Shown: positions 13,301 to 37,677, numbered from the stretch's first letter. The stretch: 64,000 nt of DNA from Blasia pusilla (GCA_050084515.1 CM114271.1:39246001-39310000), one strand, 5' to 3'. The notes: generated from the letters alone by a model not told the origin. A program made the numbers and translations.

Positions 13301-13564
13301 GGGCCACTTGACCTTCCCGGGGATTTCTCTTCACAGGCCGATCTAGCCTCTCGGGCGGTACCGTCTCTTTCCTTTACTGAACTCTTAGCTTCTGAAGATG
13401 ATTATTTCGAAGGAGTTGCAGGATCTGGAATGGCCCCAAATGCCAGTTGGACGGCAGAGATGTACAATTTAGATGGTGGAGCAATTGCACCTGTTCCCTC
13501 CACAGATGAAATTGCTGGTTTTGTTGGTCTAGGTTCAGGGTCTGTTCCTGACAAGATGCCATAA
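4337..13564 (+). CDS. PTM: PTM-like DDT/PHD chromatin protein (Tudor-like N-terminus, DDT, three PHD-type fingers, AT-hook-like motifs). Exons 4337-5904, 6109-6822, 7218-8667, 8909-9203, 9496-9620, 10047-10573, 10717-10745, 11211-12272, 12834-13564
   Basis: FVGRTVRKHF...YKVKYADGDREELD (Tudor-like); DLFQVYSVLRSFS..LSPFALEEF..DWTLLDNITWP (DDT); DGNLDECVLCGMDGSLICCDGCPAAYHARC..WFCPEC (PHD); EKCGWCISC; WWRGGRLSR; CEHCKVWYHGDA..GFKCHKCR. All introns are GT-AG with consistent phases. Confidence 0.9.
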
Positions 13565-15043: not shown

Positions 15044-18000
15044 TCATAAACCCAGCATAGCCTGCAACTCCCTGTCCCAATGCTCCCTGGCCTCTCTCAA
15101 ACGGTGCCGTCGCTCCTGTGGCAGCCTCTCATTGTAGTAGTCTTCACATCTGTGGAGGAGCCCCAGTGAATTTCAGTACTCCCTATCCAGAGTTTCCTCG
15201 CCTCAGCAGCAACATTCCCCACTTACGGGTCTTATCCAGAGGGGGGATTTGAAGCAAAAGGATCTCATATACATTCTCCACTTACAGATCTTATCCGGAG
15301 GTGCGATTTGAAGCAAACGGGTCTCATGTTTTGACAAGTTCTGATCGTAAATACTAGAAAGGTTTTTTATTTTCATTTTATGTTCTGACGAGTTGTGATA
15401 CTAGATATTAGTAAGGTTTTTAATTTAAGACCTTACAAACATAGTAAGGGAAATAAAAGTTATTATTGTTAGTATGAAGGGAAGGTTTAATGATGCTACA
15501 CAATTTTATTTTTTTTCCGAGTTATCACGGATCAAAGCACCCTAAAGCACCTCCCATACAGATAAAAAAAAAACCATCTCTTATGACGACCACGATATTT
15601 ACGGCCGAATATGTACATGATTCGATACGGAAGTGCGAGATTCTCCTACTTCGCTCAGTCTCGTCTCCGATTCCTATTCCTGTCGCCTAGTATGGACGCA
15701 AGCAAACAACTGAAATACGGATCCGTAAGCAAGTCAGGCGCGAGTCCCAACTCACCTGGTACTTACAAGCGCACCCAACTCCCGTAGTTTCACAGCGTGG
15801 ACGTATACTTCACTCTGCAGTGCACGGAGCCCACATTGTCACAATCTTGGAACTTCCGGTCTACATGACGATACCCCCCTACACCATTCTCTGATTTCAC
15901 GACGGAACCTTCTACTGTTGTGCGACAACTGGTACGGCGCTACAGTGACAGCGGTTTCTTCAGAAAGGTCATGACCCAAAGTGCGCGAAACATGCTGCTC
16001 TCAACCGCATATGTACATGATTCGCACTCCCGAGATCGGCAGTCATAGCGCAGAGGCTCGAATGCTAGCAATTGAGTAGTAGTTAATCTACGAAAGCCAA
16101 TGTCATGCTCGCAAAGCAGTCACTCGCAACCGCAACTTCCATTCGATGCATCATATCATATCACAATCCGAAGACACGCGACTGTATCGACAACTAGCCC
16201 ATGCCTCTGTCCCCCCCGTATGCAGGGGCATCGTCGAGGCGGGCGATGCGGAGGCCAGAGAAGGAAGTGCAAACCTGTCGACACAACGGGCACTTCGCTC
16301 TTCGCTGCGCCGCTTTGGTCCCTTGAAACACCGGAACAAAGGCCGCTGCGCAAGCACAACTCGTGCAAAAGATATGCCCACAACCTAGAGCAACCGGCTC
16401 GAAAACCATCTCCTGCACCACAAAACACACGATCTCCTACCATGAGACGCCTCGCTACAAACCCTGCATCCCTGGCGAATGGAATGCAGCAGTAAGGGAC
16501 ACGATTTTAAAATCAGCATAAGACGAAGGAGAGTCGTAGCGTTCTGGGCCGCATTAGCTGCCCAAGTCGGCAGAATTCTATAGAGCCTATCCTATCTTAA
16601 AAGCTTACGCGTATGCTGAAGTCGGTCGATTTCTTCAGTACACAAGGCACGCGCAAGCGCTCAAGCTTCACGGTACATTTCATGGCAGTAGAGTACCGAA
16701 CCGAGGGAAAATCGCATTATCGGAGGTGGTGAGCGAGGGCTTCGAACATTGAAACAGGGCTGGAGTAAGTACAGGGGAGTCTCGAAATTCGCGAGGGCTC
16801 GAGAGACGATCCGCGAGTTGCAGCGAGGGACATGCTGAGGATGAGGGCGAAGACGACGTACCAAGCATATGGAGCAGGTGAGGCTGAAGTCCAGTCGTAT
16901 CGCGCCGGGCAGCACGCAGGAGAGAGTGTGGTTGGTGTCATCGAACTGACATGTGGAGCACCACTGCGAAAGCCGGTCAGCTTGGCCCGAGGCGTCGGGT
17001 AGCCCCGAGTCCATGAGATTCAAGCCCAGAGCACCCAATTCGACGAGGAACGGCGATCGCAGGAGCTCGGCACGCATGACTACCAAGCGTGACTTGAATG
17101 CACGCCCATTCGCGGATCCGTGTATCTGCCAACACAATTCGGCAACTCGAAGTGAGCTCCGGATCCCAGAAAACCAGAACAACTCTGAATGTAAGTAACT
17201 GCACTCCTCGAGCGGCAGGTCCGGTGATTCGGAGCTCAATGTGGGTTCCGTCAATATGTTCCTAAGACCATAAGGGTGTGGCGGATCCGGTGCAGACAGA
17301 ATCTAGTAGGGTTAGGATCTCCACTATATCTTCGTTCGACACCCGTATCCGTACCCGTACCTATGCCTAGCATGCAAGCTCTACATGACGAGTAGCAAGT
17401 CTGATTCATCCGAGACAGTTTCGTGGAAGAAATCGACGCAGCCGGAATTACCTTGTCGTACTTTTTGAGGATCTTGCGGATGGCTAGTGCGTTCATGCAA
17501 CCGTAGCACACGAGGGTGTTTCCTAGTAGAATCATGGTTGCTGGATCACGACGGATTTTACACCTGAATTGCAGAAGGTACTTGCTAAGGCCTGACGCCA
17601 AGTGAAGACGCAGGAGCTCCTGTGCGCGGGCATTGAAAAATCTCACGATAGCTGAAACTGCCTCGAGGAGGTTTGGAAAGAATTGAGCGTCGCAAGCTGC
17701 AGCAAGACGAAAAAATTGCAACATTTCAATTAAAAGTAGAACCCTTGCAGCATGCACTCTGCAACAGCTTTCAAAGGGAACTTCTCTGCAGAACCTCGAC
17801 TTCTCCAGACCGCCAAGATCTACAACCGCCTCCCGTGCCACGACCGTTGCTGGCCTCATTCAACAACCGCCCGCGGTCCTATCCAGCTGCTAAGATTCTA
17901 GACAAAGCCGTATTATGGACTTTTACGTGCCAGGATTTCGCAAAAGGTTAGGGTTGGGATTCATCAAGCGCGAGCCGGGTAGTCCTCAGTGTTCGACTGC

Positions 18001-19053
18001 TATAGTTTTTAGTATCCCAATTTTGCTGCAGTTTCAATACGAGACGAAAATCTCATGTGCTGCGCTTTCTGGGTCCAGAAGGAAGCTGGTTCAAGGCAAA
18101 CTCGGTTTCAATACCGCATGATCTGCTGCCAAGTCTCTTCGACCGGCCATGATAATTGCGATGTTGCATGCACACATTTCGTCGGAACCGAGCCCATACG
18201 GAAGCACAGCCGGCGTTCTTGACGAAGAGCGCCCGCCGCTCAGCGCTCTGAGCGGCCAGAACGATGTTCGGCTTCCTTCCAGTAGGTCCTGAGGGTTTCT
18301 TCCACCTTCACGAATTGGGACATGAACGACGGGACAAAGCACAGGTGGCTACGGGTCAGACAATGAATCCTTCACGAGCAAGAAGAATGCGTGAGCAGAT
18401 CGAGTATGAATTCCGCCGTCCGAAGGTATGAGAGCAGTCCCACTCCGGCGACTCAAAGCTTCTACCGACGCTAACTAATGCTACGAATCTAACGACGTGC
18501 TGGGAGATGACAAACTGGACTCAGACACGAGTGTCTGAACTCGCGGGTGGTGAAAAGAAAGAGGCCTCTCTTCTTCGTATCCTCGTCATGGTGAGGAACG
18601 AAACGGTCATGAAGAGGAGGGAGGGCAGAGGACCAGCTCCGTGCTGTTGGACGCCGCTGCGGTGGATTGATGATATCGATCACGAATCGCTTTAACGGAC
18701 TCGGGACTGAAAAGCGAGCATCGCAGTCGGTGGGATAAGAAGCGAGGGGGTTGCGAGAAGCTGTTCGGGAGCAGATGGAAAATACCAGGGCAAGACGAAG
18801 AGCCGTCGTCATCGACTGAGCCGCGAGATTCGTGACGCACAACTAGGGTGGAATTGTCCGCCGCTGTGTCACATTCGGAATCGGAGTTTAGCTGTGCCGC
18901 AGACGAGTGCGAGTCGGAAACATTCAGGAGCTCTTGGTGAGGGCACTTCTTCAGGAGCTTCTTGAATCGCCTAAACTCTACGAACGAGCATTCCGGGAGC
19001 AATCGCTGCACCTCGGTCTCCACATAAACGGTGTACTTCTTGCCAAACTTCAT
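15044..19053 (-). CDS. NLA: SPX-RING E3 ubiquitin ligase, NLA/BAH1-like. Exons 19053-18786, 17696-17452, 17125-16862, 16412-16275, 15814-15756, 15149-15044
   Basis: MKFGKKY..FKKLLKKC (SPX start); [63 protein letters not shown]; C-terminus ERLPQERRHRLREAREHWDRELQAMLGL*. GT-AG introns in phase. Confidence 0.9.
15212..15327. repeat. About 59-bp imperfect tandem duplication in the last intron of the SPX-RING gene
   Basis: ACATTCCCCACTTACGGGTCTTATCCAGAGG...GAAGCAAAAGGATCTCAT followed by ACATTCTCCACTTACAGATCTTATCCGGAGG...GAAGCAAACGGGTCTCAT. Confidence 0.8.
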
Positions 19054-20410
19054 GATCTCGTCTCCTCCTCCTCCTGCGAAGCCTTCCAATTCACAGCTGA
19101 GTGATCAGCGACAGAACTTCGGGGAAGTAGTCACGACGGCGCTGGAAAATCTGCGACGCAACCCTCATGTTGCAATCGTGGAGCGAAACCGACTCTCGGG
19201 ATACACCGTCGCCATTTCTCGTCGCTTCGAATTCGGGCGCCCCTCTAAAACCAGAGAGGCATTTCCAACTTCCGGAACCGCAACACAACGACGTGCGTAC
19301 GCACTCCCGACACTCCTTCTCATCCGCCCTCGACCCGAGCGCCCCACAGATGAAGCTTCCGTCCCTCTCCAGCGACCCGATCCTCTACGGCAGTGGCGGA
19401 AACCGACGAGCATGCAAATGCAACTCTGCCACAGCGAAAGTGAGTCAGAAACTTTAAGGCCACGGCCAACGAAGCCCGCGAGCACTAGAAACAACGATCG
19501 CTCTCGACAGCTTCGAAATTCCGCCACATCAGAAACTGCGCACACATCGGCACACAACCCGTCGCGCGCGAGCGCACCCGAGCGAGACTCCTCGCACTTT
19601 CAACCGGCGCTTGGCGACATAATCCCAGCCCGGGCTCTCATTCATCCACCCAGCACTTCTACCACACTCGGCTCGACAAGCCCACCAATCAGGAGGCGCA
19701 GGCGAGCGGCCACAGCGGGAAGAGTTCGGAGGAACCCCCGCGGGAGCCCTGTGGGGAGGACGGGAATAGTTACGGGACCGGTCCCCGCAGTCACCCCGCT
19801 GCCAGCGACGGAAGAATCTCGTCTCGGCTGAATCTCGGGGTGGGCCCGCGCATGTACATTCCCGCCCGCGTCGCAACGCAAGCTCCGACCTTGCGCTTGA
19901 ATAATGTGTCCCGTCTGTCGCGTCACACGGCACGCACTGCCAAAATTAGACGAAGGCTTATCTTCCGTGATTGGACGTCAACCCCGTTCGTGTTGTTTTC
20001 TTCCTCAAGGGAGGCGCGGGCTTATTTACCGCCTGCTTGGAAAAGATAGGGCTTTTTCTTACCTCTGAACCGTTCTAAACGGCCTCTTCATCCCACCAAT
20101 CGGGAGCCGGAGGAGGGACCCGCTTGCTCCTGTCCTAAGGTGGTAACTTGTGGCCCGCCTCTCTGTCGTGTTTTACCGGTTGCTTCTTGTTCGACCACAT
20201 TGTAATGGAGTTTGTCCTTTGGTTGGAGAGCCTCCTTTAGGCGCTTGGAATTAAACGTGTGGGGCCGCCCCATTCGTCTATGGAACCCCTCCTCCCGTAT
20301 TGACACGTGTGGTATGGTCTCTTCCCATATTGACACGTGTAATTTTTAACATAAGGAGTTAACAGGTAATAGACGTCTTTCCCGTAAGCTGATTCATCCG
20401 TGCATAGTGA

Positions 20411-20819
20411 TTCACCCGAGCTATGCACGGGCAAGATGCTAGTATATAGTTACTAGTGCCTGAGCTCCGCACGGGTGAATAACATTTGAACCCGAAGAAA
20501 ACAAAAACGTATTCAAATTTGGTAGACATGTGTCAGAAAGGGAAGCATCTAAAAAGCTTATGTGTCGTCACGGGGGAGGAGTTCTCAAACCCTGTCCTCT
20601 TTTAATAACATAGATTGCAGGAATGACTATATGGATATTGTGCTTTACTTTCCAGTTGTCTTCAAAACTCTTTTATTTTCGAATTGGTTGGTAGGTCTTT
20701 GGAAGACAAAATTGAAAAATATTCTTCAATTTTGGAATCAAATTGAGTTTAGAGTGCCAAACAAACAAAAGTAATGAATGCCACACTTGCGGGAAATTAG
20801 CAGTTAGGCGTTAGCTAGT
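20411..20819. mobile_element. Helitron-like termini: hairpin+CTAGT at 20415-20443, ACTAG+hairpin at 20452-20479, and another CTAGT at 20815-20819
   Basis: CCCGAGC-TAT-GCACGGG-caagatg-CTAGT matches the canonical Helitron 3' hairpin plus CTRR end; a mirror-image copy follows 8 bp later. Confidence 0.45.
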
Positions 20820-21035
20820 TGTCGTGCGCATACACATCGCTACACAACATACATTGTTGTCACCGAACACACACACAAACAAGCACGATCCCAAGCTAAC
20901 TCATGGCATCCCAAGCTAACTCATGACATCCAAACAACGAGACAAGAAGTACCAAAATATCTCCAATAAAATAAGATCCAATCTCTCTCACAACACCATA
21001 GTTCTCACATGTGTGCACTCTCACATGTCTCTCTC

Positions 21036-24000
21036 TGTCGTGCGCCTACTCTCCTTGAACCGTAATCTTGTTGTTGCGGAAGCGTGCGTTCAGTAGGTCA
21101 TGCTCTCAACGTTGATCCGCATCCAAACACGCATTCTGGTTAGTCGGGTCTTGGATCAATCAACGGGCTAACGTTTCGAGTTCTCGTCTCGATCTCTCAT
21201 CAAGCTTGACCTTATTTGTTTCACGGTTTACAACATGGGTAAGTCTCAAAAGACTTGGGACAGACTTTCTGGTCGGTTCAAGAACCTCAAACCGCGTTTC
21301 GTGCTTGGCGGTTCCAACTGTCCGATGGACATCCAATGAGTCCCTAACCGAGACTCGCACGAAGTGAATCTCGGGTTGGAATCCAAGTGTGGCGTACAAA
21401 GTCCACTCCCTTGGATCAGGTTTGGGTTTCGAGTTCCAATGCCAAACTCCCGTTCCATCCCGTGCCTCTGAGACGCTGTTTGGTGCTCAAAGTGGGGATT
21501 CGTGTTCCAAGACATCATGGAGAGACTCCTCCCTTACTAGTATTTCTGGGGATTCGGGGTTCCCTACATTTAGGGAAAGACACCCGGGCCTCTCCAATTG
21601 GCCCTCAACCAGATTGCTCTCACAGTCGTTTTTGGCCACTACGCTTCGTGAGCGTGGAGATGGCATTACTGTCTCACGTTCAGAGAAGATTACAAAGATG
21701 ATGGTGGACGTACCTACCCTTAGAGCCTATGCTTGGGCCGTTTACCTCAAATTCATGGCAAGTTGCGGTTGCTAAGATGGCAGAGATGTCGTTAGACCCG
21801 TAATAGAGTGTATCATGGTTTTTGTGGATATTGTCTTCCTTAATAATATGGGAGAGATCTTCTAGTTGGTTTGTCCAAGGGGAAGAGTGTTTAGTCCGCA
21901 TCGCATCTTGTTGGATTTTTCATGCACCTACTCCTATTGAACGTCAATCTTTAGTATTTCAGAAGCGTACGATTAGTAGATCACGCTTTCCTTATTGATC
22001 TACATCCAAACACACTCATCTTAGCCAGTTTTTGGGTAACCTAGCCACATGTCTCCCCAAGTTCTCATCTCACACTATCCAACAAAATTAAAAATTCCTA
22101 ATCCCTCACTTACAATATGGGCAAGTCTTCCTAGACTTATGACATCCTTCCTATATAGTCCACACACCTAACACATCGCTCATAAGCTCGGCGGTTCCAA
22201 TTTTCCAATGAATCTCGAATGACCCAAGACTCCTTCGAGATTTATTGGAAAGTTGCAACCCAATTTGCAACCGAAACCGAAGAATTTAGTTGTGGCGAGT
22301 ATTAGCCTTGGACATCCTACTGATGAGTCCATGGTGCGAGCCAAGGCGATAGTGATCGATGCCGAGTCCGATGACGTATTGGTTGGAGTAGCAGTGTTGA
22401 ACCGGATGGGATCTTCCCTAGATTTCAAGGAGGAGTGAACATCCTATAGACTAGGATGACAGCTTAGTGATGGGCGACTTAGCTTGTTACCCGTTTGATT
22501 TACGCGTGGAGTGAACGAGCGATGGCCTGGAGAGATGGTGACATTAGCAGCATTCAACACCGCCATCACTTGGCCTAGTGATTTGATTGAGGGTCATGTT
22601 CATACGATGATACCCTTGGACACCAAACCGATTGTATGGCGTATCCTAAAGAAGGGTATTCGAGTGTTGGATCATTATTGCGTCATCAACTATTTTTCTG
22701 GAAGGAGTGCGCGTACAATTGTATTTATATGTTGAGCTTGGTGATGTTCTGAGTCGTGTTTCACTATGACATGTAGCACACTTACGCCTCCGTTTTCTCG
22801 ACTTGTTTTCTGCGTCTGCCGTACAGGGGTACTAGAGTTCCCTACCGAGGGACATTTCATTGCTCGGGGCGTAGGACTTGGAGCAGGTAGGGACTATTGA
22901 TTTGGTCATTGGTGGTTGGCCATGTGAGGGCCACTTGAGTGTTGGACAAGGTAGCGGGTTGGCGATCACTTCTTCATGATATGGAACCCCAAAATTCCTA
23001 ACTATGAAGTCCTTGTAAACTACTTTACGTTTGTACACAAGGAAAATGACACAACTAGTGTTAAACCCTATTCGAGCAGGCCTATTGACATCCATGGATT
23101 GCTATATAAGGACATACAATGTACAATCCCACATCCTTCCGTACGTGACTATATGAAGAATCATTGGAGTTGGAGAGTGCATGACTTGGTTCATGAACGC
23201 CTTCCCAAAGTAATAGACTAGATAACGAGTCAACCAGTGCCTATCTACAAAAAGAATCTTGACATGATACGGATTAAGGAAAGGAAAATCGGTAATAACT
23301 CGTGCTCCACCCCTATCCATAATTGACAAACATTCTCTACGCTCCTCTTGAATGGGGTTTGGCGCATTTGCTCTCTCAAGAGGGGTAATCCACTCTTATT
23401 GGGAAAAGAACAAGCCAAACCATCCACTATTTCTAATATGACTAAACTCCCTTAAGGTGATAAGTCTCACACTCTAAAATCCTCTCGGAGACTAGACCAT
23501 GGTCAAGTTACTCTCCCAAGAGGGATAATCCACTCTCCTTGGAATAGCAAGCAATCCCAAAGCCATCCACTCAAGAGTGACACGAAAAACTCAAGATGTT
23601 AAGTAGAAGGTGATGAACCCTTGAAGGTCCCTCCTCTTCACATACTCACAAGGGATCCACAATAGTACAAAATAGGCTAATCTTATCTTGTGCCACATGG
23701 CTCCCTCTCAAGGCTTAGCCAATCGTATTTTGACACAAGTAGATTACCTCTTATCTCTTCCAAAATATCCTCTTTTACACCCTTCATATCTTCCAAACTA
23801 CCCCACCAACCAAGACTACTTTTGCTTTTGTTTCATTAAAGCACCAACCCCATTATTTTACTTTTCTAATCCAATTTGTATTTTTTAATTTTTTTTCCTA
23901 AAGTTGGGCCCGTGCAAATGAGTCATCCTAAAAAGGTTTAAACATGGGAATTTCATTTTCCTAGACTAATTTACTTAATACTAATAAAACTCTCTTTAAC

Positions 24001-25093
24001 ACTTAATGTTAGAGAAGTTTACGTAATGGGTGATTTTACTATACAACAATGCACAATATTTTCCAATTTTGTGAGTTTCCACGCTTCTTATATATACAAG
24101 GAGGCCGAACCTGACTTGGTTTGGGATGACCAGGTACAGCGGTTGGTGGAGCCCAATGCCGATGAGCGAGAGCGAGCGATGGGATTTCCCAAACGAGTGA
24201 AAGCATTATCGTCACTATTAGAGGCATAATGACAACATATCCTCGATCAATCGATGGACTTAAACTGCTTGAAGTGGATCATCAGCTTAGGAGTAGTTGA
24301 GCAGTGTTGGATGAGATTGCGACATGTCACAATTGTTGTATTGGTAAGCCCCATGCCTATGGAGACGGTTGAGGCAGTGGATAGGGGCGAGACTTGAGGA
24401 GATCGACACACCAAGGGTGATCAGGAAAGACACCCTTGGACTTCTTGGAAAGTTTTGCAGGTACGCCAAGAGATGGTAGCCATATCATCGAGCGTAGTTA
24501 CAGGTACTTATCGTGGACGAGATGAGAGTTTGTAGTTGGCTGCAAGGGAGAAGTTGAGTCATGTTGTTTGAAATGGGTTTCTAGCATAACAACCACCAAT
24601 ACCCACGCCGAAGAGTCCTACCGTGGTCATGATGGAGACTTGGGGGCCAGATATGGGCCCCATGGGCCAATATCTCATTCTGTACTCATGCGTTTGCTGA
24701 GATCTTTTATGCGTTGGAAGCGTCTCAAGATAAGATTTTCAACGCGCCCTTACTTGTTAAAAATTCATCTTGGAGCTAAACGTTATGGTCCAAAACACAG
24801 TCAAATTCCCCAAACGCTGGTGGTGTTCCAAAACGGGTTCTCACCTCTTTGGCAACCAACCTTCCAAGACTCAACTCATCTCAAGTCTTGGCTCACGTTT
24901 GGTCTAGGTTTCTTGGTCGCGACCACTAACGCATGAAACGTACAACTCTGTTCCGCATTTTGTCTCTTGGAATTTTCCAAGAGACCTTTCCAAACGCCTC
25001 TCCAAAGCGCGAACATCGCAGCGTGAGTCCACTTGAGTTCTGAAGTTCCGCTTGGCGCCTATTTGGTGTTGTTTGGTTATGAGGGTCGTGACA
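21036..25093 (-). mobile_element. Solo LTR (Gypsy LTR family A) with 5-bp TSD CTCTC, interrupted by a ~3-kb insert at 21639-24664
   Basis: TGTCGTG...CGTGACA termini; CTCTC at 21031-21035 and 25094-25098; both halves align to the intact solo LTR at 52657-53684. Orientation taken from the PBS next to the related LTR at 27468. Confidence 0.85.
21639..24664 (+). pseudogene. Fragmented protease-DNMT segment of the methyltransferase-carrying Gypsy family (copy 2), broken by unrelated inserts
   Basis: Protease C-terminal half DVLVGVAVLNRMGSSLDF (~22370-22425); KGIRVLD (start of motif I, ~22650-22672); LPRDISLLGA*DLEQVGTIDLVIGGWPCEGHLSVGQGSGL (motifs III-IV, PC at 22920-22925); EPNADERERAMGFP and HILDQSMDLNCLKWI (motifs IX-X, ~24148-24280). 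Collinear with copy 1. Confidence 0.85.
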
Positions 25094-26043
25094 CTCTCAA
25101 TGTCAAACCAAACCCACTCTTCTAATGAGAGGCTTGGGTTACACATACAAGGTAGGCAAGACCATAGCTCCGCCGCCTCATGCCAAGAGGTTCAACAAAG
25201 AGAGAATGAGCTCTCAAGCTATCTCTCCTTGAGGTATACCCCTCCCCTCTCCCAAGCTCTCTCCATGGTAACCTATGCTCCCAAGTCAACTCCTTGGCTC
25301 TTGATTTGATGTAGGAGATCAAGGGCCACTTACCAAAAATATAAAGTCGATCATATACTCAAAATGGTACTTACCTAAAATAATAAGTTCCTCAATATGA
25401 CTCCAAATGAGCGGAAACAAAGGGGAAACCTGCTCTCTCAAGTTTTCCGGGGCTTCAACAAGTCATCCTCGACCTACTGACCATGTCCTCCACTACTCAC
25501 GAAGGCGCTCTACTAGATCTCACATATCTATCCTAAAAACGTGACAGTTGTCGTGCATATACACATTACTACACAACATACATCGTTGTCACCCAACACA
25601 CACACAAACACGCACGATACCATGCCAACTCATGGCATCCAAACAACGAGACAAGAAGTACCAAAATATCTCCAATTGCTCCCCTAGCTGGTGGTTAGGT
25701 CCCTCTAACTCCAGATAGCCATCTATCCCTACCTACCATGACATACATCTCTCAGACGCTAAGAGCAAGAAGGTCGGGTGCTCATGTGGCCCCATCGTTA
25801 GTCACCTTCTTGTCATCCGTGTCATAGACACAAGTTGGAATGTAGAACTACCTACTCTATGTACATATGGGATACATCCATCATCCCTGAGGAACCGTAG
25901 TGAGAGGTGGCGTCAAACATGCCATATGCCATCCTCTCGAACACCCATCACAAACTAGCATAGTGGATGCACCACGGGCGGAACCACACAACATACACCG
26001 CAAGCCTGTAGGAACTATTGCTAAGCTCGGATCAATTGTACCG

Positions 26044-27323
26044 TCAATGTTCGGAAGATGACATGGTAGAGAGCCCCAGTTCCTTCACGATTCTCGGGCT
26101 TAGGAAGGAGTGCGAAGCATCTGTATCCACGAGCAACAACACATCGCGATCAGCAATCTTGGATCTTAGGTACACCAAATTGTGCGTCCTCTTGGTAACT
26201 TGAAGGGATGTCTCGAGATCGCCCGCCAACAGATGCTTAGTAGCAAACGCAATCATACTCCCATTACTAACCTTCGGTTTCAAACACCCTTTCGCCAGGT
26301 GCCCAGGTTCGCCACAGTTGTAGCAAACGACCTCGCCGTTCCGTGACTTTGAGTGTTGTCCTCCTTTCGGTTTCGCATGAAGTTCCACTCGTTTTGCTGC
26401 CGGGACAGACGACTCTCTTGGTTCGTGCTGGCCCCCACTCCAGCCTCGTTTGAACGCCTCCTTATTGTTCGACTTCTTTGAAAAACCTTTTGGCTCGAAG
26501 GGTTTCTGGGTTTGGACCTCATCGTCCCCAATCCGCTCCACTAGCCTCAGAAGATCCGCGCAGGTCTCTGGCAACGTCGGCATTCGGTAAAGGGCGTTTT
26601 CAGCGCTCGGCTTGAGTCCACTAATGAAGATAGCCTTCTTCGCGTGCTCATCCATCTTTGGACTAGAAGTCAGTTTCGCACTAAACTCCCTCACATACGC
26701 GCTTAAGGAACCACTCTGCCGCATCCGCACGCATTCCACCGTGTCGCGCAACCCTTGGAACGCCGGAGTGAACCGATCCCCAATCAACTCCTTGAACTCC
26801 TCCCAACTCAGAGGTGACTCGCCGCCCAGATATTCCTCTCGTTGAGCTTTCCACCATTGTAGAGCATGATCCTTCAAGAAAGTAACGGCTACCGTCACCT
26901 TGTCCTGCTCAGCTGCCCTCTGCGCCTCGAAGTACAGTTCCAATTCCGTAAGGAAATCCTTCACTTTCCGTGAGCGCCCCACTCCAATGAATGGCGTGGG
27001 CAGGTTTGTCTTGCAGAGCTTTTTGCCGCACCCAGGGTTCGAGTGGCCTCTAACTCTGCAATCCGCTTGCTTTGCTGGGACATCTGCTCCACCAACACCT
27101 TCAACAAGTCCAACGTCTGGCTCGAATCCGTCCGTTCCCCTGAGTTTGGGCCCACTGGCCCCGCGGAAGGATTCGCCTCCAGAACGTCCTCACGATTGGT
27201 GTTCAGCTCTTCAGGAGTCTTCGTCTCCTCCATAGCTTCACGGTCCGCCATTGGTTCCTCTCTTGGTTCACGTCGCTTGATTCGGCGCTTCTTGGGTTGT
27301 TCTCCCTCGATCGCCATTTCCAA
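26044..27323 (-). pseudogene. Gag and protease start of a Ty3/Gypsy element (5' half), frameshifted and truncated
   Basis: DFLTELELYF..FLKDHALQWW..SWEEFKELIGDRF..MRQSGSLSAYVREF (retrotransposon Gag); CYNCGEPGHLAKGC (CCHC knuckle); LLVDTDASHSF (protease DTG mutated). Confidence 0.9.
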
Positions 27324-27453
27324 GCCAACTCACTCAGATCTCCTCATCGTTTCTTGCGTCCCTCCTCGAGTGTCTGAGTCTAGCCGCTACCTTTGAGTTT
27401 CCCCAAGCGTCCGGTTGATCCCACGACCCCAAGTTCTCGCTCACCAAGGATTT

Positions 27454-27465
27454 GCTCTGATACCA
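27454..27465 (-). promoter_or_regulatory. Primer-binding site complementary to initiator tRNA-Met
   Basis: GCTCTGATACCA is the reverse complement of TGGTATCAGAGC, 2 bp from the LTR end. Confidence 0.9.
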
Positions 27466-27467
27466 CT

Positions 27468-28470
27468 TGTCGCGCCCCTACTCTCCTTGAACGTCAATCT
27501 TTAATGTTGCGGAAGCGTACGTTCAGTAGGTCACGAACTCATCGCTGATCTGCACCCAAACACGCACTCTTGTTAGTCGGGTCTAGGCCACCCAGCGTTC
27601 CAACCCACCGATTCCTCAATTCGGCGTCTCATCAAACTCAACCTTCCTTAGCTCCTAGTTTCCAAAACATGGCAAGTCCTTCAAGACTTGGAACAGACTT
27701 CTTGGTTAGTCCAGGGATCTGAAACGGCACTTGCGCGCCTAGCAATCCCAACTGTTCAACGGTCCTCGGGTGAGTTCCGAACCGAGACCCAAGTAATTGA
27801 GTCGCGGGGTGGAATCCAAGAGGGATGTCTAAAATCGCCTCAATGGACTTGGTGCAGGTTTTCCAACCCATCCCCCAAACTCGCGTTCCGTTCCATGCCC
27901 TTGGGCCGCCCCGCGGCGCCCAAAGTGGGGTTTGGGTTCCAAGCACTCTCGGAGACCTTCCCCCTTACTAGTACTTCTGGGGTTCTCCAATAACCCCTCC
28001 CCTTTGGGAAAAGAGGGTCGGGCCCTTCATTGTGGCCCTCAACCCGACTCCATTTACAGTCGTTTTCGGGTTGTATCTTGGCCTCTGTTTATGCGTTTGC
28101 AGCGATCTTTAGTGCGTTTGGACCGGCTCTCTATAAGCTTTCCAACGCACCCTTATTTGTTCCAAACGCATCTTGGTGCTAAAAGTTATGGTCATAAATA
28201 CAGTCGGAAACTCTCAAACGCTAGTGGCGTTCCAAATCCGGATCTTTCCTTTGGCAACCTACTTCCTAGACTCGACTTCTTTCAAGTCTCATTCCGCGTT
28301 TGGTCCCGGTTTCTCAGTCGCGACCATAACATCTGAAACGCGACTCCTCGCTCGCGTCTCGTCTCTTGTCTCCTCTTTGAGACAACTCCAACGGGCAAAC
28401 CATCTTAGCGTGAGCCCGCTAATGTTCCGATGTTCCGCTTGACACTTGTTTGGTCATGAGGGTCGCGACA
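27468..28470 (-). mobile_element. 5' LTR (family A) of the gag-bearing element, inserted into the integrase of the DNMT-Gypsy
   Basis: TGTCGCG...CGCGACA inverted termini, about 1.0 kb; PBS and gag follow on the minus strand; integrase-like sequence abuts at 28471. Confidence 0.9.
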
Positions 28471-31400
28471 AAGGATGTCTGCTTGTTGAATCTGTATCCC
28501 ATCTCCAACCACCGCAATTGAAGGTCCCAATCTCCTAGGTGACCTCTCTGCAAGCCATACTTGTGTAGTCCTCTCTTCACCCTCTGCACAACCCGCTCCT
28601 CTAGTCCATCCGCCTCAAAATGATCTCGCGAAGTAGTGCGGTGGTCGATCAGTGCCTGATCACACAAGGCTTGAAACTCCCCACGGAACTCTGTACCCTA
28701 GACTGTCAACACCTCAGCTAGTGCGCCGCAATCACTCAACACTCGATCTAGGAAGGCATACGCTACTCCCTCACTCGCTTTGTCAGGCAATACAACCAAC
28801 TCTATCCACTTCGAGAAGTGCTCGACCATCACCAACACATGACAACTATGATGCTTTGTCAAAGGCAAAGGTCATGCAAAATCCAAACTCCATCTATAAC
28901 CTAAATCCATGATCGGAAGTGGATGCAACTATGGAGTTGGAGCATTGAACAATGCTCCAACTCGATCACATAAAATGCATTTGGCAACAAACTGCTGAAC
29001 GTAAGTCTGCATGCCTCGCACCAATATTGAATCTGGAGCAATTTGTATGTCCGCTTCATTCCAAAATGACCCAACTTCTTGTGGGCATGACGCACCAAAC
29101 GTGCTCTCTAAGAAGGATGAGGCACTACACGCACTCTACCATCCTCCCATACTTGCAACACATGTGTGCCCTTCCATCGGAACCGTCTGGCTTGCTGTAG
29201 GATCCGATCCCGCTCTCTAGCACCCACTGTGCTCGCGACGCTGCATGTAGGCAAGTAGTCCAAGACCACTCCATCATCGTGAATGTCTCAGCCACCTGTC
29301 GTCTCCTCACCAGCCTCTGGATCTAAGGACTCTCCATCAGACCTCGCCATCGAAGTCTCAGCAATCTAGCTCTCCATAGCCAACAAGCCCAAATAGGTTG
29401 ACGCATACAATCCTGGCACCAACTCCTCATCACTCTCACCATGCCAACGAGCTCGAGTCACATCTCGTTGACTCGAGCATGGGTTATGGCTCAAACCATC
29501 TGCATCCTGGTTGAGCGTCCCAGGTTTATGCACCACTTGGAAGTCATACTCCTACAACAAAAGAGCCCACCTCGAAAGCTTCGTTGTAAGCTTGTCGGAC
29601 TCCATCAACCACTTAAGTGGCTAATGATCAGTAATGATGGTAAAGGGATTTCTGAATAGATAACATCTGAAATGTGCGACAACCCACACTGCAGCCAAGC
29701 ACTCACTCTCATACGAGCTATACTTTGCCTCTGCAGCGTTGTTCGAGCAACTAGCATAAGCCACCACAAACTCTCTACCATCATCGTCATGTTGGGTGAG
29801 CACGGCTCTAAGCCCCAACATGCTCCAATCGGTATGCAACTAGAAAAGACGCCCCCTGATCGATCTCCTCAATATGGGCACAGACGTTAATCTATCCTTG
29901 AGCATATGAAATGCTCTCTCTTGCTCATCCCCCCAGTGCCACTACTGATCCATCTTGGTCATCAAGGTTAGCGGCTTCGCAATTGAACTGAAACCCTTGA
30001 CGTACAGTTGATAGAAGTTCGCCAATCCCATGAATGCATGGACTCAACTCACATCTTGAAGGCGTGGAATGTGTGAAATATCCTCTACCTTTGTCTGTTG
30101 CATACCAAGGCCCCCAGGATATATCGTATGACCCAAGTACTCAATCTGGTCGTAGAAGAACTTGCACTTGCCTGGAAGTAGCTTGAGCCCATGTAACTGC
30201 AATCGTCAGAACACCTCCTCTAGATGTCGCTCATGCTCCTCAACCGTGGCGCTAAAGACTACAATGTTATTAATATAACAACTAGCAAAATCCAGACCTG
30301 CAAAAATCCTATCCATGACCCTTTGAAACTCATCCGGGGCCTTCTTTAACCCGAATGGTAAGAACCGCCACTGGTACAAACAATCCTTCCAGTGAGGATC
30401 GAAGCCCCAAAATGCCGTCTTTTGCATGTCCTCCAATCTGATAGGCAGCTGATGATATCTGGTCGCAAATCCAATGAACTGAATTTTTTTGCATGCCGAA
30501 TCGCATCAAAGATCTCCTCAGGGGTGGGCATGGCATACCTATCAAACTTTGTCTGCCGATTGATATGTCGGTAATCTCCACACATCTGCCTATCCGTCCA
30601 GTTGCCATGCACATCCTTCTTGGCGGGCATGACAGTGGCAGATGCATACTCTCCATGCGACATCTCCACTACTCCTGCTCCAACCAAGTCTTGGCTCCTA
30701 CTTTGAATCAGAGCCCTCTCCATGTCACTGTACTTGTAGGGTCGCCGGAAGGTCGGCGTGTCACTCGATAACTCAATGCAGATCCTTGGACCCTTCAGCC
30801 TACCCAAATCATGCATGCTAAATGCAAAACAACTCCTATAACTCCTAAGGAACTAGTGTATGCGGCGCTGCTCTCCTCCTGTCAACTTAGGGCCTATATC
30901 TGGCTCCCAACTCTCTGGCGCGGGTGTCGGTAGTTGCTATGGTGCAACCCCGTCTCGGATAATAGAACTCTCATCTCCACGTGCAGTACCCCGAACCACA
31001 CTCGATGGTGTGGCTATCATCTCCTGGCGTACCTGCAAAACATCCCAAGAAGTCCAAGGGTGTCTCTCCCAATCATCCTTGGTGTGTCGATCTCCTCGGG
31101 TCTCGCCCCCAGCCGCTGCCTCAACTGCCTCGGTAGGCATGGGGCTCACCAACGCAACAACTCTAATCTGTCGCGTCCTCAAATGACGATGCTCAACTAC
31201 TCCTAAGCTGAAAATCCATGTCAAGCAGTTCAGGTCCATTGCCTCACCCAAGACATGACGTTGTGATGCCTCTGATAGTGATGGTATTGCCGTCACTCTT
31301 GTGGGGAATCCCATTGCTCGCTCTCGCTCATCGGCATTGGGCTCCACCAACCTCTATACTTGGTCATCCCAAAACAAGCCACGTCCGGCCTCCTTGAATG

Positions 31401-33108
31401 CATAGGAAGCGGGAAAACTCACTAATGTGGGAAAGGTTTCCCGTGGCCTGCCAATCCTATTAACCATAGTCAATGGCGGTCGATCATCTAGCCTCACTGC
31501 TTGTGATCGACGGCCAGGATCCAATATAGAATCCACCAAAAAATTGGAGGGACACTCCACTCTCGCATATGCCTTCCATAACACCTCGTGTGGTACAAAG
31601 TTGGTCCACCAAAGACGCGGGTAATGTGCTTGTGAACCCACACTTGCCGCATCTAACAACACTTTTAGGCGGATCCATGCGCGCACCTGATGTGCACTCG
31701 TCACCATGCAGGACCTCGAATCGCCAAAAATTGGCACATTCTCCAGCGTGCAAAACAACAACTAAACCAATACGAATTCCTCCAAAGAGATCCGACACCC
31801 AAATACCTTTCTCTGGGATGCACCACAAAATCGGGGTGGTGTCCAAAGGGGTTATAGCAGCACTCCTGGCTACTTGGGGTTCCTCTGACCTATCACACTT
31901 TGGTGCAAACGTCTCGCTTCACGCGGTTTGCACATGCTCAGTGGCTAAGCGTCGAAGCTCCTCAATCGAGCCCCAAAGCGACACCTCTCCTCCACGGACT
32001 GATGCGGCTACCATGACACTCCTCTGCATAGAAATGTCACGAACTGGAGTATCCTCTGCATGGACATGTCCCTCATTGAAATCACTAGGCCAAGTGATGG
32101 CACTGCTAAATGCTACTAAGGTCGCCATCTCTCATGTCTCTCATCGCCTTGGCTCGCACCACGGACTCATGTGTAGGATGTTCCGGGCAAATCCTCACCA
32201 CGACCTCCTATCGGGTGATATACTGCCTGGTACTCGCTTCACTCAAGGATGTGTTTATTCGGAATGGATAACGCTCCACATTGGCCTCGTCAAGCCCAAT
32301 CCTCTGAATGACACTTTCCCCAACATCAAGAGTTGCGCTCCCGAATCTAACAAAGACGCGCTACGCACTAAAATCTCTATCTCCGGAACTCACCAACTGG
32401 AAGACCTCTCCCCGGTTATCCAGCAACACAACACTAGGAGAAACCATGGCACACTCTATCGCGGGTCTAGCGGGCATCTCCGCCATCCTAGCAGCCGCAG
32501 CCTGCCATGAATCTGATGTGGACGGCCCCAACATCCGCTCCAAGGGCAGATCCATCACCTCCTCTGCAATCACCTTTGAACGTGATGCAGGAACTCCAAA
32601 TCCACACTCACATAGCATAGCGGCTAGCCGAAAAACCTCAGCGGGCGTACCTCCCAACGTCATAACATCGGAAGCAAAAAATAAAGGAGCGCAGTACACA
32701 ACGGTGGCCGCCCCCAACAACATGCTCGGCACATGCCCCTCCTGAGCATCAGCAATAGGAGTCTTCGCACTCGCTTCTCCCATCGCCCTCCGTGCCTACA
32801 CATCAACAACATCACCTAATCTCCGGGAACTCTGATAAGGACTCCTCCACGGGCAGCTTCACCACCTTGTCGGGAAACTCTAGCTCCTCATCCCCCAACG
32901 GGACCACCTGATGCACGATCTCTAGGTCCATCCTAACCGGCCACTTGCTTTGGTGCCCTCTCTAGCCCTCGGTCCGGACGTAACTCAAGATGTAAAATGA
33001 AACACTTGGCACGTGTGTGACCATACCTCTGACAATAGTCAGACTGATAACCTCCTGGTGCAGCACCATCTCCTCCTCCATGCTGAGGCACACGTCCATG
33101 ACCCTAAC
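28471..33108 (-). mobile_element. Decayed Ty3/Gypsy internal region: Gag knuckle - protease - C5 DNA methyltransferase - RT - RNase H - integrase (copy 1)
   Basis: SDYCQRYGHTRAKC (~33045-33003, CCHC with first C changed to S); LLDSGAQ (~32354-32334); DNMT motifs (31846-31200); RT RRPYKYS..EYASATVMPAKK..MCGDYRHIN..YAMPTPEEIFD..LPFGLKKAP..YINNIVVFS; RNase H HTDWSMLGLRAVLTQ..VVAYAS..ECLAAVW..ITDH; integrase HKKLGHFG and ADGLEERVVQRVKRGL. Many stops and frameshifts. Confidence 0.9.
31200..31846 (-). pseudogene. DNMT3-like C5 cytosine methyltransferase domain inside the Gypsy pol (motifs II-V deleted in this copy)
   Basis: DLFGGI (motif I, 31792-31775); LENVP (VI); LLDAASVGSQAHYPRLWWTN (VII/VIII); ERERAMGFP (IX); QRHVLGEAMDLNCLTWI (X). 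Motifs are in unpermuted order. Confidence 0.85.
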
Positions 33109-37076: not shown

Positions 37077-37677
37077 TGTCAGCGATGTATATTCTATGAC
37101 GATGTGGATTCGCACGACAACCTGCTGAGGCCCCGATAAATATGAGAGAGAAGGTTTTTCCCTTCATTTCGGCTCATTTGGAGTCAAATTGAAGAACTTA
37201 CTATTTTAGGTAAGTACCATTTTGAGTATATGGTCTACTTTATATTTTGGGAAGTGACCCTTAACCTCCTAAATTAGGTCAAGGGCCAAGGAGGTAACTT
37301 GGGAGCATAGGTTATCATGGAGAGAGCTTGGGAGAGGGAGGGGTATACATCAAGGAGAGAGAGCTTGACTGCTTATTCTCTCTTTGTTGAACCTCTTGAC
37401 ACGAGGTGGTGGAGCTATGGTCCCTTGTCTTGTGAGTGTAATCCAAGCCTCTCATTAGGAGAGTGGGTTTGGTTTGACATTGAGAGAGACATGTGAGAGT
37501 GCACACATGTGAGAACTATGATGTTGTGAGAGAGATTTCACCTTATTTTACAAAGAGATATTTTGGTACTTATTGTCTCGTTGTTTGGATGCCATGAATT
37601 AGCATGGGATCGTGCGTGTTTGTGTGTGTCTTAAGTGACAGCGATGTATGTTGTGTGGCGATGTGTATGCGCATGAC
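37077..37677 (-). mobile_element. Repeat family C, copy 2 (inverted), truncating the chromovirus RT
   Basis: The reverse complement matches 20820-21035 plus 25094-25460, and ends with a short restart of the unit's first ~40 bp. Confidence 0.7.

What the first reader, a model, noticed from the sequence alone, without database searches (positions are those of the whole stretch)
22300..24560. Second diverged copy keeps the catalytic GGWPC motif and completes the enzyme
Seen: a + strand copy with the same protease - linker (TLAAFNTAITWPSDL) - DNMT junction. It contains RDISLL..IDLVIGGWPCEGHLSVGQGSGL (motifs III-IV with the catalytic Cys at 22923-22925) plus motifs IX-X. The two copies together supply motifs I, III, IV, VI, VIII, IX and X. 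Inference: the PR-DNMT fusion is a replicated family trait rather than a one-off insertion, and the ancestor was probably catalytically competent.
Basis: partly seen in the sequence, partly recalled or inferred. Interest (0 to 1): 0.78.

Follow-up and report, generated by a model that had tools for sequence, protein, structure and literature searches.

The report
Dead fragment of methyltransferase-carrying Gypsy retrotransposon
This stretch is a broken, non-functional piece of a jumping gene whose family carries its own DNA-methylating enzyme, a kind so far described only in one alga but here seen to be common in liverworts and peat mosses.

Summary
Window 21702-24532 (+) is a decayed fragment of a Ty3/Gypsy Pol. 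It holds the protease, a conserved junction (TLAAFNTAITWPSDL, 22541-22585), Dnmt3-type motifs II-IV with the catalytic Cys codon at 22923-22925, and motifs IX-X. tblastn with an intact liverwort relative gives E 6e-33, 2e-25 and 6e-15.

The copy is dead. It has nine in-frame stops, a mutated motif I loop and PCQ changed to PCE. About 1.1 kb of unrelated DNA replaces motifs V-VIII. It sits inside a solo LTR of another Gypsy family.

The minus-strand copy (33103-28464) has different lesions and no shared stop. dN/dS between the two copies is 0.38-0.49. WGS reads show many more copies in the genome.

Intact relatives with gag-PR-DNMT-RT-RNaseH-INT occur in Marchantia, Calypogeia, Sphagnum and metagenomes. 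They keep the catalytic Cys in 43 of 45 and match DNMT3A/B best by sequence and by fold. In the domain tree they fall on the same side as Klebsormidium nitens, whose KnitGypsy-Dnmt3 (de Mendoza 2018) is the known kind.

A larger algal group, including Scenedesmus, places the DNMT between RNase H and integrase.

Verdict: a real but fossil new member of a known kind. The family's breadth is the interesting part.

The parts
21031..21035 (.). Left copy of the 5-bp target-site duplication CTCTC of the LTR unit 21036-25093. The right copy is at 25094-25098.
   Evidence: flanks read ...CTCTC|TGTCG... and ...GTGACA|CTCTC. The uninterrupted site is seen at rc 37482-37490. 287 WGS reads (143 + 144) join 21030 to 25094.
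21036..21641 (.). 5' part (positions about 1-606) of a solo LTR of another Gypsy family ('F2'), starting TG.
   Evidence: 88% identical to 52657-53276 and 70% to 27468-28069. Termini.
21702..21937 (+). Copy 2: remnant of the Pol stretch just before and at the start of the protease.
   Evidence: ORF pieces SNSWQVAVAKMAEMSL.. and RPVIECIMVFVDIVFLNNMGEIF. P0044 aa 457-501 matches 21791-21925, 42%, E 1.25e-6.
21920..22222 (.). LTR-like filler replacing the middle of the protease of copy 2.
   Evidence: 72-78% identical to LTR starts at 21038-21130, 27474-27576 and 52659-52752. Collinear repeats D4 and D6 both have spacing 883.
22280..22606 (+). Copy 2: protease C-terminal part and the conserved PR-DNMT junction (TLAAFNTAITWPSDL at 22541-22585). 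Three in-frame stops.
   Evidence: P0003 aa 140-227, 43%, E 6e-15. Stops at 22436, 22457 and 22496.
22595..22690 (+). Copy 2: stretch before motif I and a degenerate motif I (..GIRVLDHYCVIN where relatives have ..VLDLFGGIS). About 66 aa of linker are missing before it.
22686..22961 (+). Copy 2: DNMT motifs II-IV in another frame. Catalytic Cys codon TGT at 22923-22925. Motif IV reads GGWPCEG (family AGWPCQG). Three in-frame stops.
   Evidence: P0003 aa 329-420, 50%, E 2e-25; family HMM positions 101-131, E 7.8e-9. Stops at 22767, 22833 and 22872.
22962..24043 (.). About 1.1 kb of unrelated, partly repeated DNA where motifs V, VI, VIII and most of the target-recognition region should be.
   Evidence: no HMM match in any + frame; no match to copy 1; internal 140-bp spaced repeat; raised contig word depth.
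24044..24301 (+). Copy 2: end of the target-recognition region and motifs IX-X (..EPNADERERAMGFP..MDLNCLKWI). Two adjacent stops.
   Evidence: P0003 aa 558-686, 49%, E 6e-33. 80% DNA identity to 31434-30966. Stops at 24227 and 24230.
24302..24532 (+). Copy 2: linker that in intact elements leads from the DNMT to the RT. The fragment ends before any RT.
   Evidence: Stop at 24395.
24665..25093 (.). 3' part (positions about 613-1022) of the same solo LTR, ending CA. The 8 bp GGCCAATA at 24665-24672 repeat GGCCACTA at 21634-21641.
   Evidence: 85% identical to 53269-53678; junction sequences.
31922..33103 (-). Copy 1: gag zinc-knuckle remnant, protease, junction EMATLVAFSSAITWPSDF and the full PR-DNMT linker.
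   Evidence: P0003 aa 24-138 and 205-335; P0007 aa 503-689.
30940..31918 (-). Copy 1: DNMT with motif I (DLFGGIRIG), then a deletion of motifs II-V, then motifs VI (LENV), VIII (PRLWWTN), IX, X and the linker. One stop at 31356-31354.
   Evidence: (P0003 aa 450-686, 58%, E 1e-82).
28464..30909 (-). Copy 1: RT, RNase H and integrase core. Cut at 28464-28470 by LTR A of the other Gypsy family.
   Evidence: P0006 aa 696-1190, 58-63%. P0044 aa 1103-1240, 69%; P0053 aa 335-403, 70%.
25860..26084 (-). PHD finger that in this family ends the integrase. Probably the displaced C-terminus of copy 1's Pol.
   Evidence: PF00628, E 5.4e-9; 71% to Marchantia P0053 aa 540-608.

Best explanation
Window 21702-24532 (+) is a fossil. 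It is a scrambled, 5'- and 3'-truncated piece of the Pol gene of a Ty3/Gypsy LTR retrotransposon whose family carries a Dnmt3-type cytosine-5 DNA methyltransferase between protease and reverse transcriptase. The full order is gag-PR-DNMT-RT-RNaseH-INT, and some members end in a PHD finger. The piece does nothing now.

It lies inside a solo LTR of a different Gypsy family. That LTR is itself inserted, with a 5-bp target duplication, in a very high-copy repeat.

The second copy on the minus strand (33103-28464) is an independent, differently damaged descendant of the same family.

Inferred for the living family, not shown here: the DNMT is made as part of Pol. It uses AdoMet through motifs I-III and the Cys of motif IV to methylate cytosines de novo. 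The likeliest target is the element's own reverse-transcribed DNA or the chromatin at the integration site. The C-terminal PHD finger on the integrase would read histone tails to choose or mark that site.
For: Shown:
- Collinear homology of copy 2 to intact Pol proteins across PR, junction, DNMT II-IV, DNMT IX-X and the pre-RT linker (E 6e-15 to 6e-33).
- Copy 1 continues into RT-RNaseH-INT.
- 9 stops, frame changes, two replaced stretches and no RT in copy 2.
- LTR pieces 21036-21641 and 24665-25093 are collinear with the intact LTR 52657-53682, with TG..CA ends and the duplication CTCTC.
- Those LTRs belong to another family. A primer-binding site (PBS) and an unrelated gag follow LTR A, and a polypurine tract (PPT) precedes LTR B.
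- The relatives' DNMT is Dnmt3-type. phmmer against PDB gives DNMT3A 8.4e-11, DNMT3B 6.6e-10, DRM 3.9e-7, HaeIII/HhaI about 1e-3.
- An AlphaFold model of P0014 (pLDDT 82.5, pTM 0.82) gives DNMT3A/3B/3C in all listed Foldseek rows (ranks 1-50). The best is 6f57_D, E 3.9e-18, TM 0.80 on the target.
- Catalytic residues are kept in 42-44 of 45 relatives.
- Whole architectures: P0124 CCHC-PR-DNMT-RT-RNaseH-INT, P0117 CCHC-PR-DNMT, P0006 DNMT-RT-RNaseH.
- Many further genomic copies: 216 and 219 WGS reads match only 22562-22603 and run on into the AEDTPV linker that copy 2 has lost.
Against: - Pfam does not call PF00145 on any single ORF piece of the window copies. The identification rests on relatives.
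- Neither copy has LTRs of its own family in the window, so a full element of this family is not seen here.
- The junctions 21641/21642 and 24664/24665 were not confirmed by reads (bin 21705-21845 has zero depth). Part of the mosaic could be an assembly error.
- The mechanism for the living family is untested. The only published assay of the Klebsormidium enzyme in yeast was inconclusive (PMC5890265, passages read).
Confidence: 0.9

Rival explanations
1. The two window copies are a local segmental duplication of one already dead locus, so they say nothing about a family.
For: They lie only about 6.4 kb apart (24532 to 30940) in one repeat nest. The same foreign LTR family flanks both.
Against: - Opposite orientation and about 80% DNA identity.
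- Non-overlapping deletions.
- 0 shared stops among the 4 stops in the 158 shared codons.
- dN/dS 0.38-0.49 with bootstrap upper bounds below 1.
- Hundreds of reads from other copies.
- Dozens of relatives in other species.
Confidence: 0.03
2. The DNMT pieces are remains of a host DNMT3 gene that happens to lie next to transposon debris.
For: The best solved-structure matches of the family are host DNMT3A/B.
Against: In both copies the DNMT is in phase and collinear with protease upstream and with the pre-RT linker or RT downstream, exactly as in single-ORF Pol proteins of relatives. The target-recognition region is shared with the retrotransposon proteins and does not align to DNMT3A.
Confidence: 0.01
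3. Copy 2 did not arrive as a Gypsy integration. It came as a fragment carried or copied into the solo LTR by another process: capture by a DNA transposon that makes 8-bp duplications, templated repair, or template switching.
For: - The 3.0-kb insert has no LTRs or terminal inverted repeats.
- It is flanked by an 8-bp direct duplication, GGCCACTA / GGCCAATA, 7 of 8 alike.
- It is antisense to the LTR that holds it.
- It contains an extra LTR-like piece at 21920-22222 and 1.1 kb of unrelated DNA.
Against: No transposase, terminal repeat or poly(A) was seen. A 7-of-8 match could be microhomology. The junctions are not read-verified. This rival concerns only how the fragment got there, not what it is.
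Confidence: 0.3
4. The mosaic at 21036-25093 is partly an assembly artefact of a very repeat-rich genome.
For: WGS and contig coverage is zero at 21705-21845 and near zero to 21986. No laid record spans either junction. The surrounding repeats have depths 10-150 times the unique level.
Against: Only about 1 in 100 of the WGS run was read, giving roughly 2x on unique parts, so gaps are expected. Contig pieces of run X1 cover unique parts of copy 2 with 0-5 differences (table 8). The two LTR halves match one intact LTR with an exact 8-bp overlap, which an assembler collapse would not be expected to produce.
Confidence: 0.1

Closest known systems
KnitGypsy-Dnmt3 of Klebsormidium nitens (de Mendoza et al. 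2018, PMC5890265; passages read)
   Same: - A Dnmt3-related, intronless DNMT inside the Pol ORF of an LTR Gypsy element, with key residues conserved and purifying selection reported (Ka/Ks < 0.2, paper).
- The K. nitens protein KFL_000540020 (P0076) matches the liverwort DNMT at 31-35% identity, including the target-recognition region.
- It is followed by the RT start (local score 103 against a shuffled maximum of 45).
- Its 89%-identical relative P0117 is CCHC-PR-DNMT.
- In DNMT trees it falls on the same side of the 97%-supported split as Marchantia and Calypogeia.
   Different: The paper places the acquisition in the K. nitens lineage. The relatives found here are in land plants (liverworts, Sphagnum) at only about a third identity to K. 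nitens. The window copies are dead. A PHD finger at the integrase end is seen here, and the passages I read do not mention one.
Host DNMT3A/3B/3C catalytic domain
   Same: Best sequence and fold match. The motif order I-X is not permuted. Motifs I, IV, VI, VIII and X align.
   Different: About 20% identity. Motif IV is PCQ rather than the PCN of DNMT3A in the alignment. The target-recognition region (P0003 aa about 500-589) does not align to DNMT3A. No PWWP or ADD domain; it is embedded in Pol.
Plant DRM methyltransferases
   Same: Second-best solved relatives (E 3.9e-7 to 2e-4).
   Different: DRM domains are circularly permuted (stated in PMC5890265). The family here is collinear with DNMT3A from motif I to X.
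Algal Pol proteins with RT-RNaseH-DNMT-INT-PHD, for example 'pol' of Scenedesmus sp. PABB004
   Same: The same DNMT subfamily (hits of the family profile at E < 1e-96). Integrase ending in a PHD finger.
   Different: The DNMT sits between RNase H and integrase, not between protease and RT. All 107 such rows lie on the other side of one tree branch from all 10 PR-DNMT-RT rows. I found no paper describing them.
SymbioDIRS-Dnmt3 and SymbioLINE-Dnmt of Symbiodinium (PMC5890265)
   Same: Retrotransposon-borne DNMTs. SymbioDIRS-Dnmt3 methylated CG de novo in yeast (paper).
   Different: Different retroelement classes and a different host lineage. No sequence comparison was made here.

Membership tests
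C5 cytosine DNA methyltransferase, Dnmt3 type | AdoMet-binding motif I (F-x-G-x-G loop) | tested here: not met
   Copy 2 reads VLDHYCVIN where relatives read VLDLFGGIS. Copy 1 keeps DLFGGIRIG. Relatives: F in 38 of 45, second G in 39 of 45.
C5 cytosine DNA methyltransferase, Dnmt3 type | Motif IV Pro-Cys with the catalytic cysteine | tested here: met
   GGWPCEG, Cys codon at 22923-22925. The Q of the family's PCQ (43 of 45) is E in copy 2. Copy 1 has lost this motif.
C5 cytosine DNA methyltransferase, Dnmt3 type | Motifs VI (ENV) and VIII (RxR) | tested here: not met
   Absent from copy 2: no HMM match in 22977-24060. Present in copy 1 as LENV and PRLWWTN.
C5 cytosine DNA methyltransferase, Dnmt3 type | An open reading frame able to give an enzyme | tested here: not met
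   9 in-frame stops and frame changes in copy 2. A stop and a deletion of motifs II-V in copy 1.
C5 cytosine DNA methyltransferase, Dnmt3 type | Closest to DNMT3 rather than DNMT1, DRM or bacterial enzymes, with unpermuted motif order (tested on intact relatives) | tested here: met
   phmmer against PDB, Foldseek on the P0014 model and the Atlas structure rows. No tree including host DNMT3 was made.
Gypsy-DNMT3 retrotransposons (KnitGypsy-Dnmt3 kind) | DNMT lies inside the Pol of a Ty3/Gypsy element (order PR-RT-RNaseH-INT) | tested here: met
   Copy 1: PR-DNMT-RT-RNaseH-INT, collinear with P0006, P0007 and P0044. Copy 2: PR-DNMT-pre-RT linker only.
Gypsy-DNMT3 retrotransposons (KnitGypsy-Dnmt3 kind) | DNMT specifically related to that of the K. 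nitens elements | tested here: met
   P0076: E 5.7e-33, 95% coverage. 35% identity over 233 aa, including the target-recognition region. Same side of the SH-like/SH-aLRT 97 branch. Caveats: unrooted tree, no host DNMT3 outgroup. That P0076 is a KnitGypsy-Dnmt3 copy is inferred from its architecture and was not checked against the paper's list.
Gypsy-DNMT3 retrotransposons (KnitGypsy-Dnmt3 kind) | Own LTRs, PBS and PPT bounding the element | tested here: not met
   The LTRs next to both copies belong to another family, with a different gag and an RT only 31% identical. No own-family LTR pair was found in the window.
Gypsy-DNMT3 retrotransposons (KnitGypsy-Dnmt3 kind) | Purifying selection on the DNMT across copies | tested here: met
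   dN/dS 0.38 (0.19-0.72) over 82 codons between the two window copies. Motif retention in 45 relatives. No DNA of other copies was available for a DNMT-versus-RT comparison.
Gypsy-DNMT3 retrotransposons (KnitGypsy-Dnmt3 kind) | DNA methyltransferase activity | not testable with these tools
   Inconclusive even for the K. nitens enzyme in yeast (PMC5890265).

The most novel reading that the evidence does not exclude
Gypsy elements that carry a Dnmt3-type methyltransferase are not a peculiarity of Klebsormidium. They form an old, large lineage of green-plant retroelements.

One branch has the order gag-PR-DNMT-RT-RNaseH-INT(-PHD). It runs from Klebsormidium into land plants (liverworts, Sphagnum). 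In the window's species it is still multi-copy, with a few RNA reads.

A sister branch has the order RT-RNaseH-DNMT-INT-PHD. It is abundant in chlorophyte-like genomes such as Scenedesmus.

The elements would thus pair a methylation writer with a histone reader on the integrase. The same DNMT would have been moved within Pol, or captured twice.
Probability: 0.5. Interest if true: 0.65.

Novelty: new member of a known kind. Interest (0 to 1): 0.45.

Why it matters
Retrotransposons that encode the enzyme normally used to silence them are a paradox. They are known from very few lineages. The only plant-side case in print that I could find is one charophyte alga, where the capture was read as lineage-specific.

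The window's two copies are only fossils. They do lead to dozens of relatives, several with near-full-length Pol ORFs, in Marchantia, Calypogeia and Sphagnum, and to a larger algal group with another domain order and a PHD-tipped integrase.

If that holds, the question 'what does a transposon gain from its own DNMT?' becomes testable in Marchantia, a genetically tractable land plant. It would also mean that annotated DNMT counts in bryophyte genomes include transposon genes.

Tried and rejected
- Whole-genome search and download: no genome is held for this window. Copy number, intact copies and LTR ages in this species could therefore not be measured.
- Pfam on single ORF pieces: no DNMT call.
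- Earlier notes of this scan: nothing by place, sequence or words.
- Sequencing runs: no RNA holder listed.
- Laid RNA reads on copy 2 were few: 74 reads in X14 and 118 in X15 over the whole 4.2 kb, mostly on the flanking high-copy repeat. Only about 2-6 reads lay at 22551-22691, and those came from other copies. I draw no conclusion on expression of this locus.
- Read support for the two inner junctions was not obtained.
- CpG observed/expected: 0.66-0.68 in the copies, against 0.45 and 1.05 in the two host genes. No usable signal of past methylation.
- Terminal inverted repeats, own LTRs or poly(A) at the ends of the 3-kb insert: none.
- A rooted answer to 'one capture or several' was not possible. 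No host DNMT3 sequences were among the retrievable hits. Only the best 150 of 18732 were listed, and the profile also holds non-DNMT columns, so its counts overstate the DNMT family.
- Literature searches and passages of PMC11982613, PMC10952607, PMC6453930, PMC11244446, PMC12542154 and PMC6338049 gave nothing on bryophyte or chlorophyte DNMT-carrying LTR elements.
Those of PMC5890265 and PMC12344493 may list such copies.
- I considered and dropped the idea that the flanking LTRs are the family's own (see membership test).
Full report
**What is at the coordinates**

The + strand of 22300-24560 has no long ORF.
- TLAAFNTAITWPSDL is at 22541-22585.
- One frame over 22686-22961 reads ...YLYVELGD...SSLPRDISLLGA*DLEQVGTIDLVIGGWPCEGHLSVGQGSGL, with TGT at 22923-22925.
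- 24044-24301 reads ...LVEPNADERERAMGFP...MDLNCLKWI.

Pfam did not recognise a DNMT in any single ORF piece of either copy at E<=1. The identification therefore had to come from relatives.

**Relatives**

A 135-aa ORF of the minus-strand copy (31761-31357) found 13 longer proteins at E 2.6e-45 to 4.7e-9. Twelve of them lie at E 4.7e-21 or better. They come from Marchantia polymorpha, Calypogeia fissa and unnamed assemblies, and most carry PF00145.
- P0006 is DNMT-RT-RNaseH by Pfam.
- P0004, P0007 and P0044 start with gag.
- P0124 is CCHC-PR-DNMT-RT-RNaseH-INT in one ORF.

tblastn of these proteins onto the window maps copy 2 as follows:
- 22280-22606: protease C-terminal part plus junction.
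- 22595-22690: stretch before and at motif I.
- 22686-22961: motifs II-IV, 50% over 92 aa, E 2e-25.
- 24044-24481: motifs IX-X and linker, 49% over 137 aa, E 6e-33.

A weaker but significant match puts the start near 21791, and ORF pieces suggest 21702.

**State of copy 2**

- It has 9 in-frame stops.
- It has a frame change at motif I. The FGG loop reads YCV there.
- Motif IV has E for the family's Q.
- It lacks about 66 aa of the PR-DNMT linker.
- It has no detectable homology from 22977 to 24060, where motifs V, VI, VIII and the target-recognition region belong.
- A piece resembling the first 300 bp of a foreign LTR replaces the middle of its protease.
- There is no RT.

**Context**

- 21036-21641 and 24665-25093 are collinear with one intact 1,026-bp LTR at 52657-53682 (88% and 85%). 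They share an 8-bp overlap that appears as a 7-of-8 direct duplication at the two junctions.
- The whole unit 21036-25093 ends TG..CA. It is flanked by CTCTC, and the empty site is seen at 37482-37490 and in 287 WGS reads.
- That LTR family is not the DNMT family's own. LTR A (28470-27468, minus sense) is followed by a primer-binding site of the TGGTATCAGAGC type. Its assignment to initiator tRNA-Met is recalled, not tested.
- After it comes a 381-aa gag-PR ORF that has Pfam gag, CCHC and protease hits but no similarity to the gag of P0004 or P0044.
- LTR B (34104-33109) is preceded by a purine tract and an RT-RNaseH-INT only 31% identical to the family's.
- Copy 2 is thus a fragment trapped, antisense, inside a solo LTR. 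How it got there is open (see rivals).

**Copy 1**

On the minus strand, 33103-28464 reads as follows:
- A gag knuckle and the protease.
- The junction (EMATLVAFSSAITWPSDF) and the full linker.
- Motif I (DLFGGIRIG), then a deletion of motifs II-V.
- Motifs VI, VIII, IX and X.
- RT, RNase H and the integrase core.

LTR A cuts the integrase. A PHD finger at 26084-25881 (PF00628, E 5.4e-9) is 71% identical to the PHD that ends the Marchantia protein P0053. It is probably the displaced end of this Pol.

**Are the copies independent, and was the DNMT under selection?**

- The alignable DNA is 80-84% identical.
- The deletions do not overlap.
- Of the four stops in the 158 shared codons, none is shared.
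- Nei-Gojobori dN/dS is 0.38 (bootstrap 0.19-0.72) for the 82 DNMT codons, 0.65 (0.34-1.23) for the 75 linker codons and 0.49 (0.31-0.79) overall. The sample is small, and both copies have also decayed neutrally, which pushes the ratio up.
- In a WGS run of the same species label (about 1% of it read, unique depth roughly 2), 216 and 219 reads match only 22562-22603. They run on into GCAGAGGATACTCC... (AEDTPV), the linker kept by copy 1 and by intact relatives. The genome therefore holds many more copies, roughly tens to a hundred.
- Across species, 45 domain-complete relatives with pairwise identity 26-97% (median 39%) keep Cys in 43, the Q of PCQ in 43, the Glu of ENV in 44, the RxR arginines in 42 and 43, and the ERERAMG glutamates in 43 and 44.

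**What kind of DNMT**

- P0003 matches DNMT3A best among solved structures (8.4e-11). DNMT3B and 3C follow, then DRM (3.9e-7), then HaeIII and HhaI. Motifs I, IV, V, VI, VIII and X align in order. The region between VIII and IX does not align.
- A model of P0014 built on 36 relatives (pLDDT 82.5, pTM 0.82) finds DNMT3A/B/C in all listed Foldseek rows (ranks 1-50). The best is E 3.9e-18, with TM 0.77-0.83 on the target among the chains of catalytic-domain length.
- The Atlas gives the same picture.

**Relation to what is known**

- De Mendoza et al. 2018 (PMC5890265; passages read) described KnitGypsy-Dnmt3 in Klebsormidium nitens. It has a Dnmt3-related intronless DNMT in Gypsy Pol, Ka/Ks < 0.2 and an inconclusive yeast assay. 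They read it as an acquisition in that lineage.
- A 2026 preprint (10.64898/2026.05.21.726589, passages) and PMC12344493 (passages) still cite only that case for streptophytes.
- Six searches found no paper on such elements in bryophytes or chlorophytes. Supplements are closed and may hold more.

A domain search here returned 77 proteins at E<=0.001.
- Named sources are Marchantia (many), Calypogeia, three Sphagnum species and K. nitens KFL_000540020 (31% identity, 95% coverage, E 5.7e-33).
- The K. nitens protein shares the target-recognition region (35% over 233 aa) and runs on into an RT start.
- Its 89% relative P0117 is CCHC-PR-DNMT.

**A wider family**

- A profile search of 1.84 billion representatives gave 669 proteins at E<=1e-30. 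The profile also holds some non-DNMT columns, so this overstates the family.
- Of ten long hits looked up, only one cluster is named: 'pol' of Scenedesmus sp. PABB004.
- Three of the four proteins scanned are RT-RNaseH-DNMT-INT-PHD by Pfam. The fourth, P0084, has the same order without a PHD hit.
- Of 250 stored proteins, 241 match the DNMT HMM. Of these, 15 have the DNMT before the RT, 116 have it after the RT or directly before the integrase, and 110 are DNMT-only fragments.
- In a FastTree of 195 domains, one branch (SH-like 97) separates two groups. One holds all 10 PR-DNMT-RT rows together with Marchantia, Calypogeia and Klebsormidium (63 rows). The other holds all 107 rows of the other order together with Scenedesmus (132 rows).
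- An IQ-TREE quick run on 75 rows gives the same split (SH-aLRT 97), with Klebsormidium on the liverwort side.
- Both trees are unrooted and have no host DNMT3, so they do not settle whether there was one capture or several.

**Mechanism**

The locus itself is inert. For the living family, what is shown is a Dnmt3-type fold, conserved catalytic residues and a fixed place in Pol.

What is inferred is de novo cytosine methylation of the element's cDNA or its integration site, as de Mendoza et al. proposed, with the PHD finger helping to choose chromatin. I hold this at moderate confidence. No activity has been shown for any Gypsy-borne DNMT.

**Verdict**

The feature is a dead new member of a known kind. 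The interest lies less in this fragment than in the breadth and the two architectures of the family it belongs to.

Noticed in passing
window 25860-26084 (-): A PHD finger (PF00628, E 5.4e-9) that ends the integrase in this retrotransposon family. It stands where chromoviruses carry a chromodomain (the chromovirus comparison is recalled). The same PHD end is seen in Marchantia P0053 and in algal Pol proteins P0064, P0087, P0092 and P0101.
   Followed up: partly
window 26047-28470 (-): 5' LTR, a primer-binding site of the TGGTATCAGAGC type and an uninterrupted 381-aa gag-CCHC-protease ORF of a different Gypsy family. It is inserted in, or recombined with, the integrase of copy 1. The open gag suggests this other family was active more recently.
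   Followed up: partly
window 20817-21035 plus 25094-25676, and 37077-37678 (-): A repeat of about 560 bp, each time followed by a partial second start of itself. It is extremely abundant in the genome: WGS depth about 330 per strand against roughly 2 for unique sequence. It is also present in RNA reads. It was not classified.
   Followed up: partly
window 21634-21641 and 24665-24672: An 8-bp direct duplication (GGCCACTA / GGCCAATA) flanks the 3.0-kb mosaic that holds copy 2. The insert has no terminal repeats. The way it was inserted is unexplained.
   Followed up: partly
window 22962-24043: Unrelated 1.1-kb filler inside copy 2 with an internal repeat (23368-23428 and 23508-23571). Parts of it, for example 23679-23819, are multi-copy in the genome and appear in a few RNA reads.
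   Followed up: no
window 52657-53682: An intact solo LTR (TG..; 1,026 bp) of the same family as the LTR pieces around copy 2 (85-88%) and of LTR A and B (70-72%).
   Followed up: partly
window 38893-39183 (-): A further Gypsy protease-like remnant, about 31% identical to the family's protease.
   Followed up: no
window 4307-13564 (+) and 16661-19104 (-): Two apparent host genes with introns. One is a large protein with PHD-type fingers (a PHD query hits 6575-6739) and, by my reading only, a DDT-like region. The other starts MKFGKK.. like SPX-domain proteins (my reading, not tested).
   Followed up: no
stored proteins P0092, P0087, P0101, P0084 and 116 of 241 family hits: A second, larger group of retroelements places the same DNMT subfamily between RNase H and integrase (RT-RNaseH-DNMT-INT-PHD). 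It includes 'pol' of Scenedesmus sp. PABB004. I found no description of it in the searched literature.
   Followed up: partly
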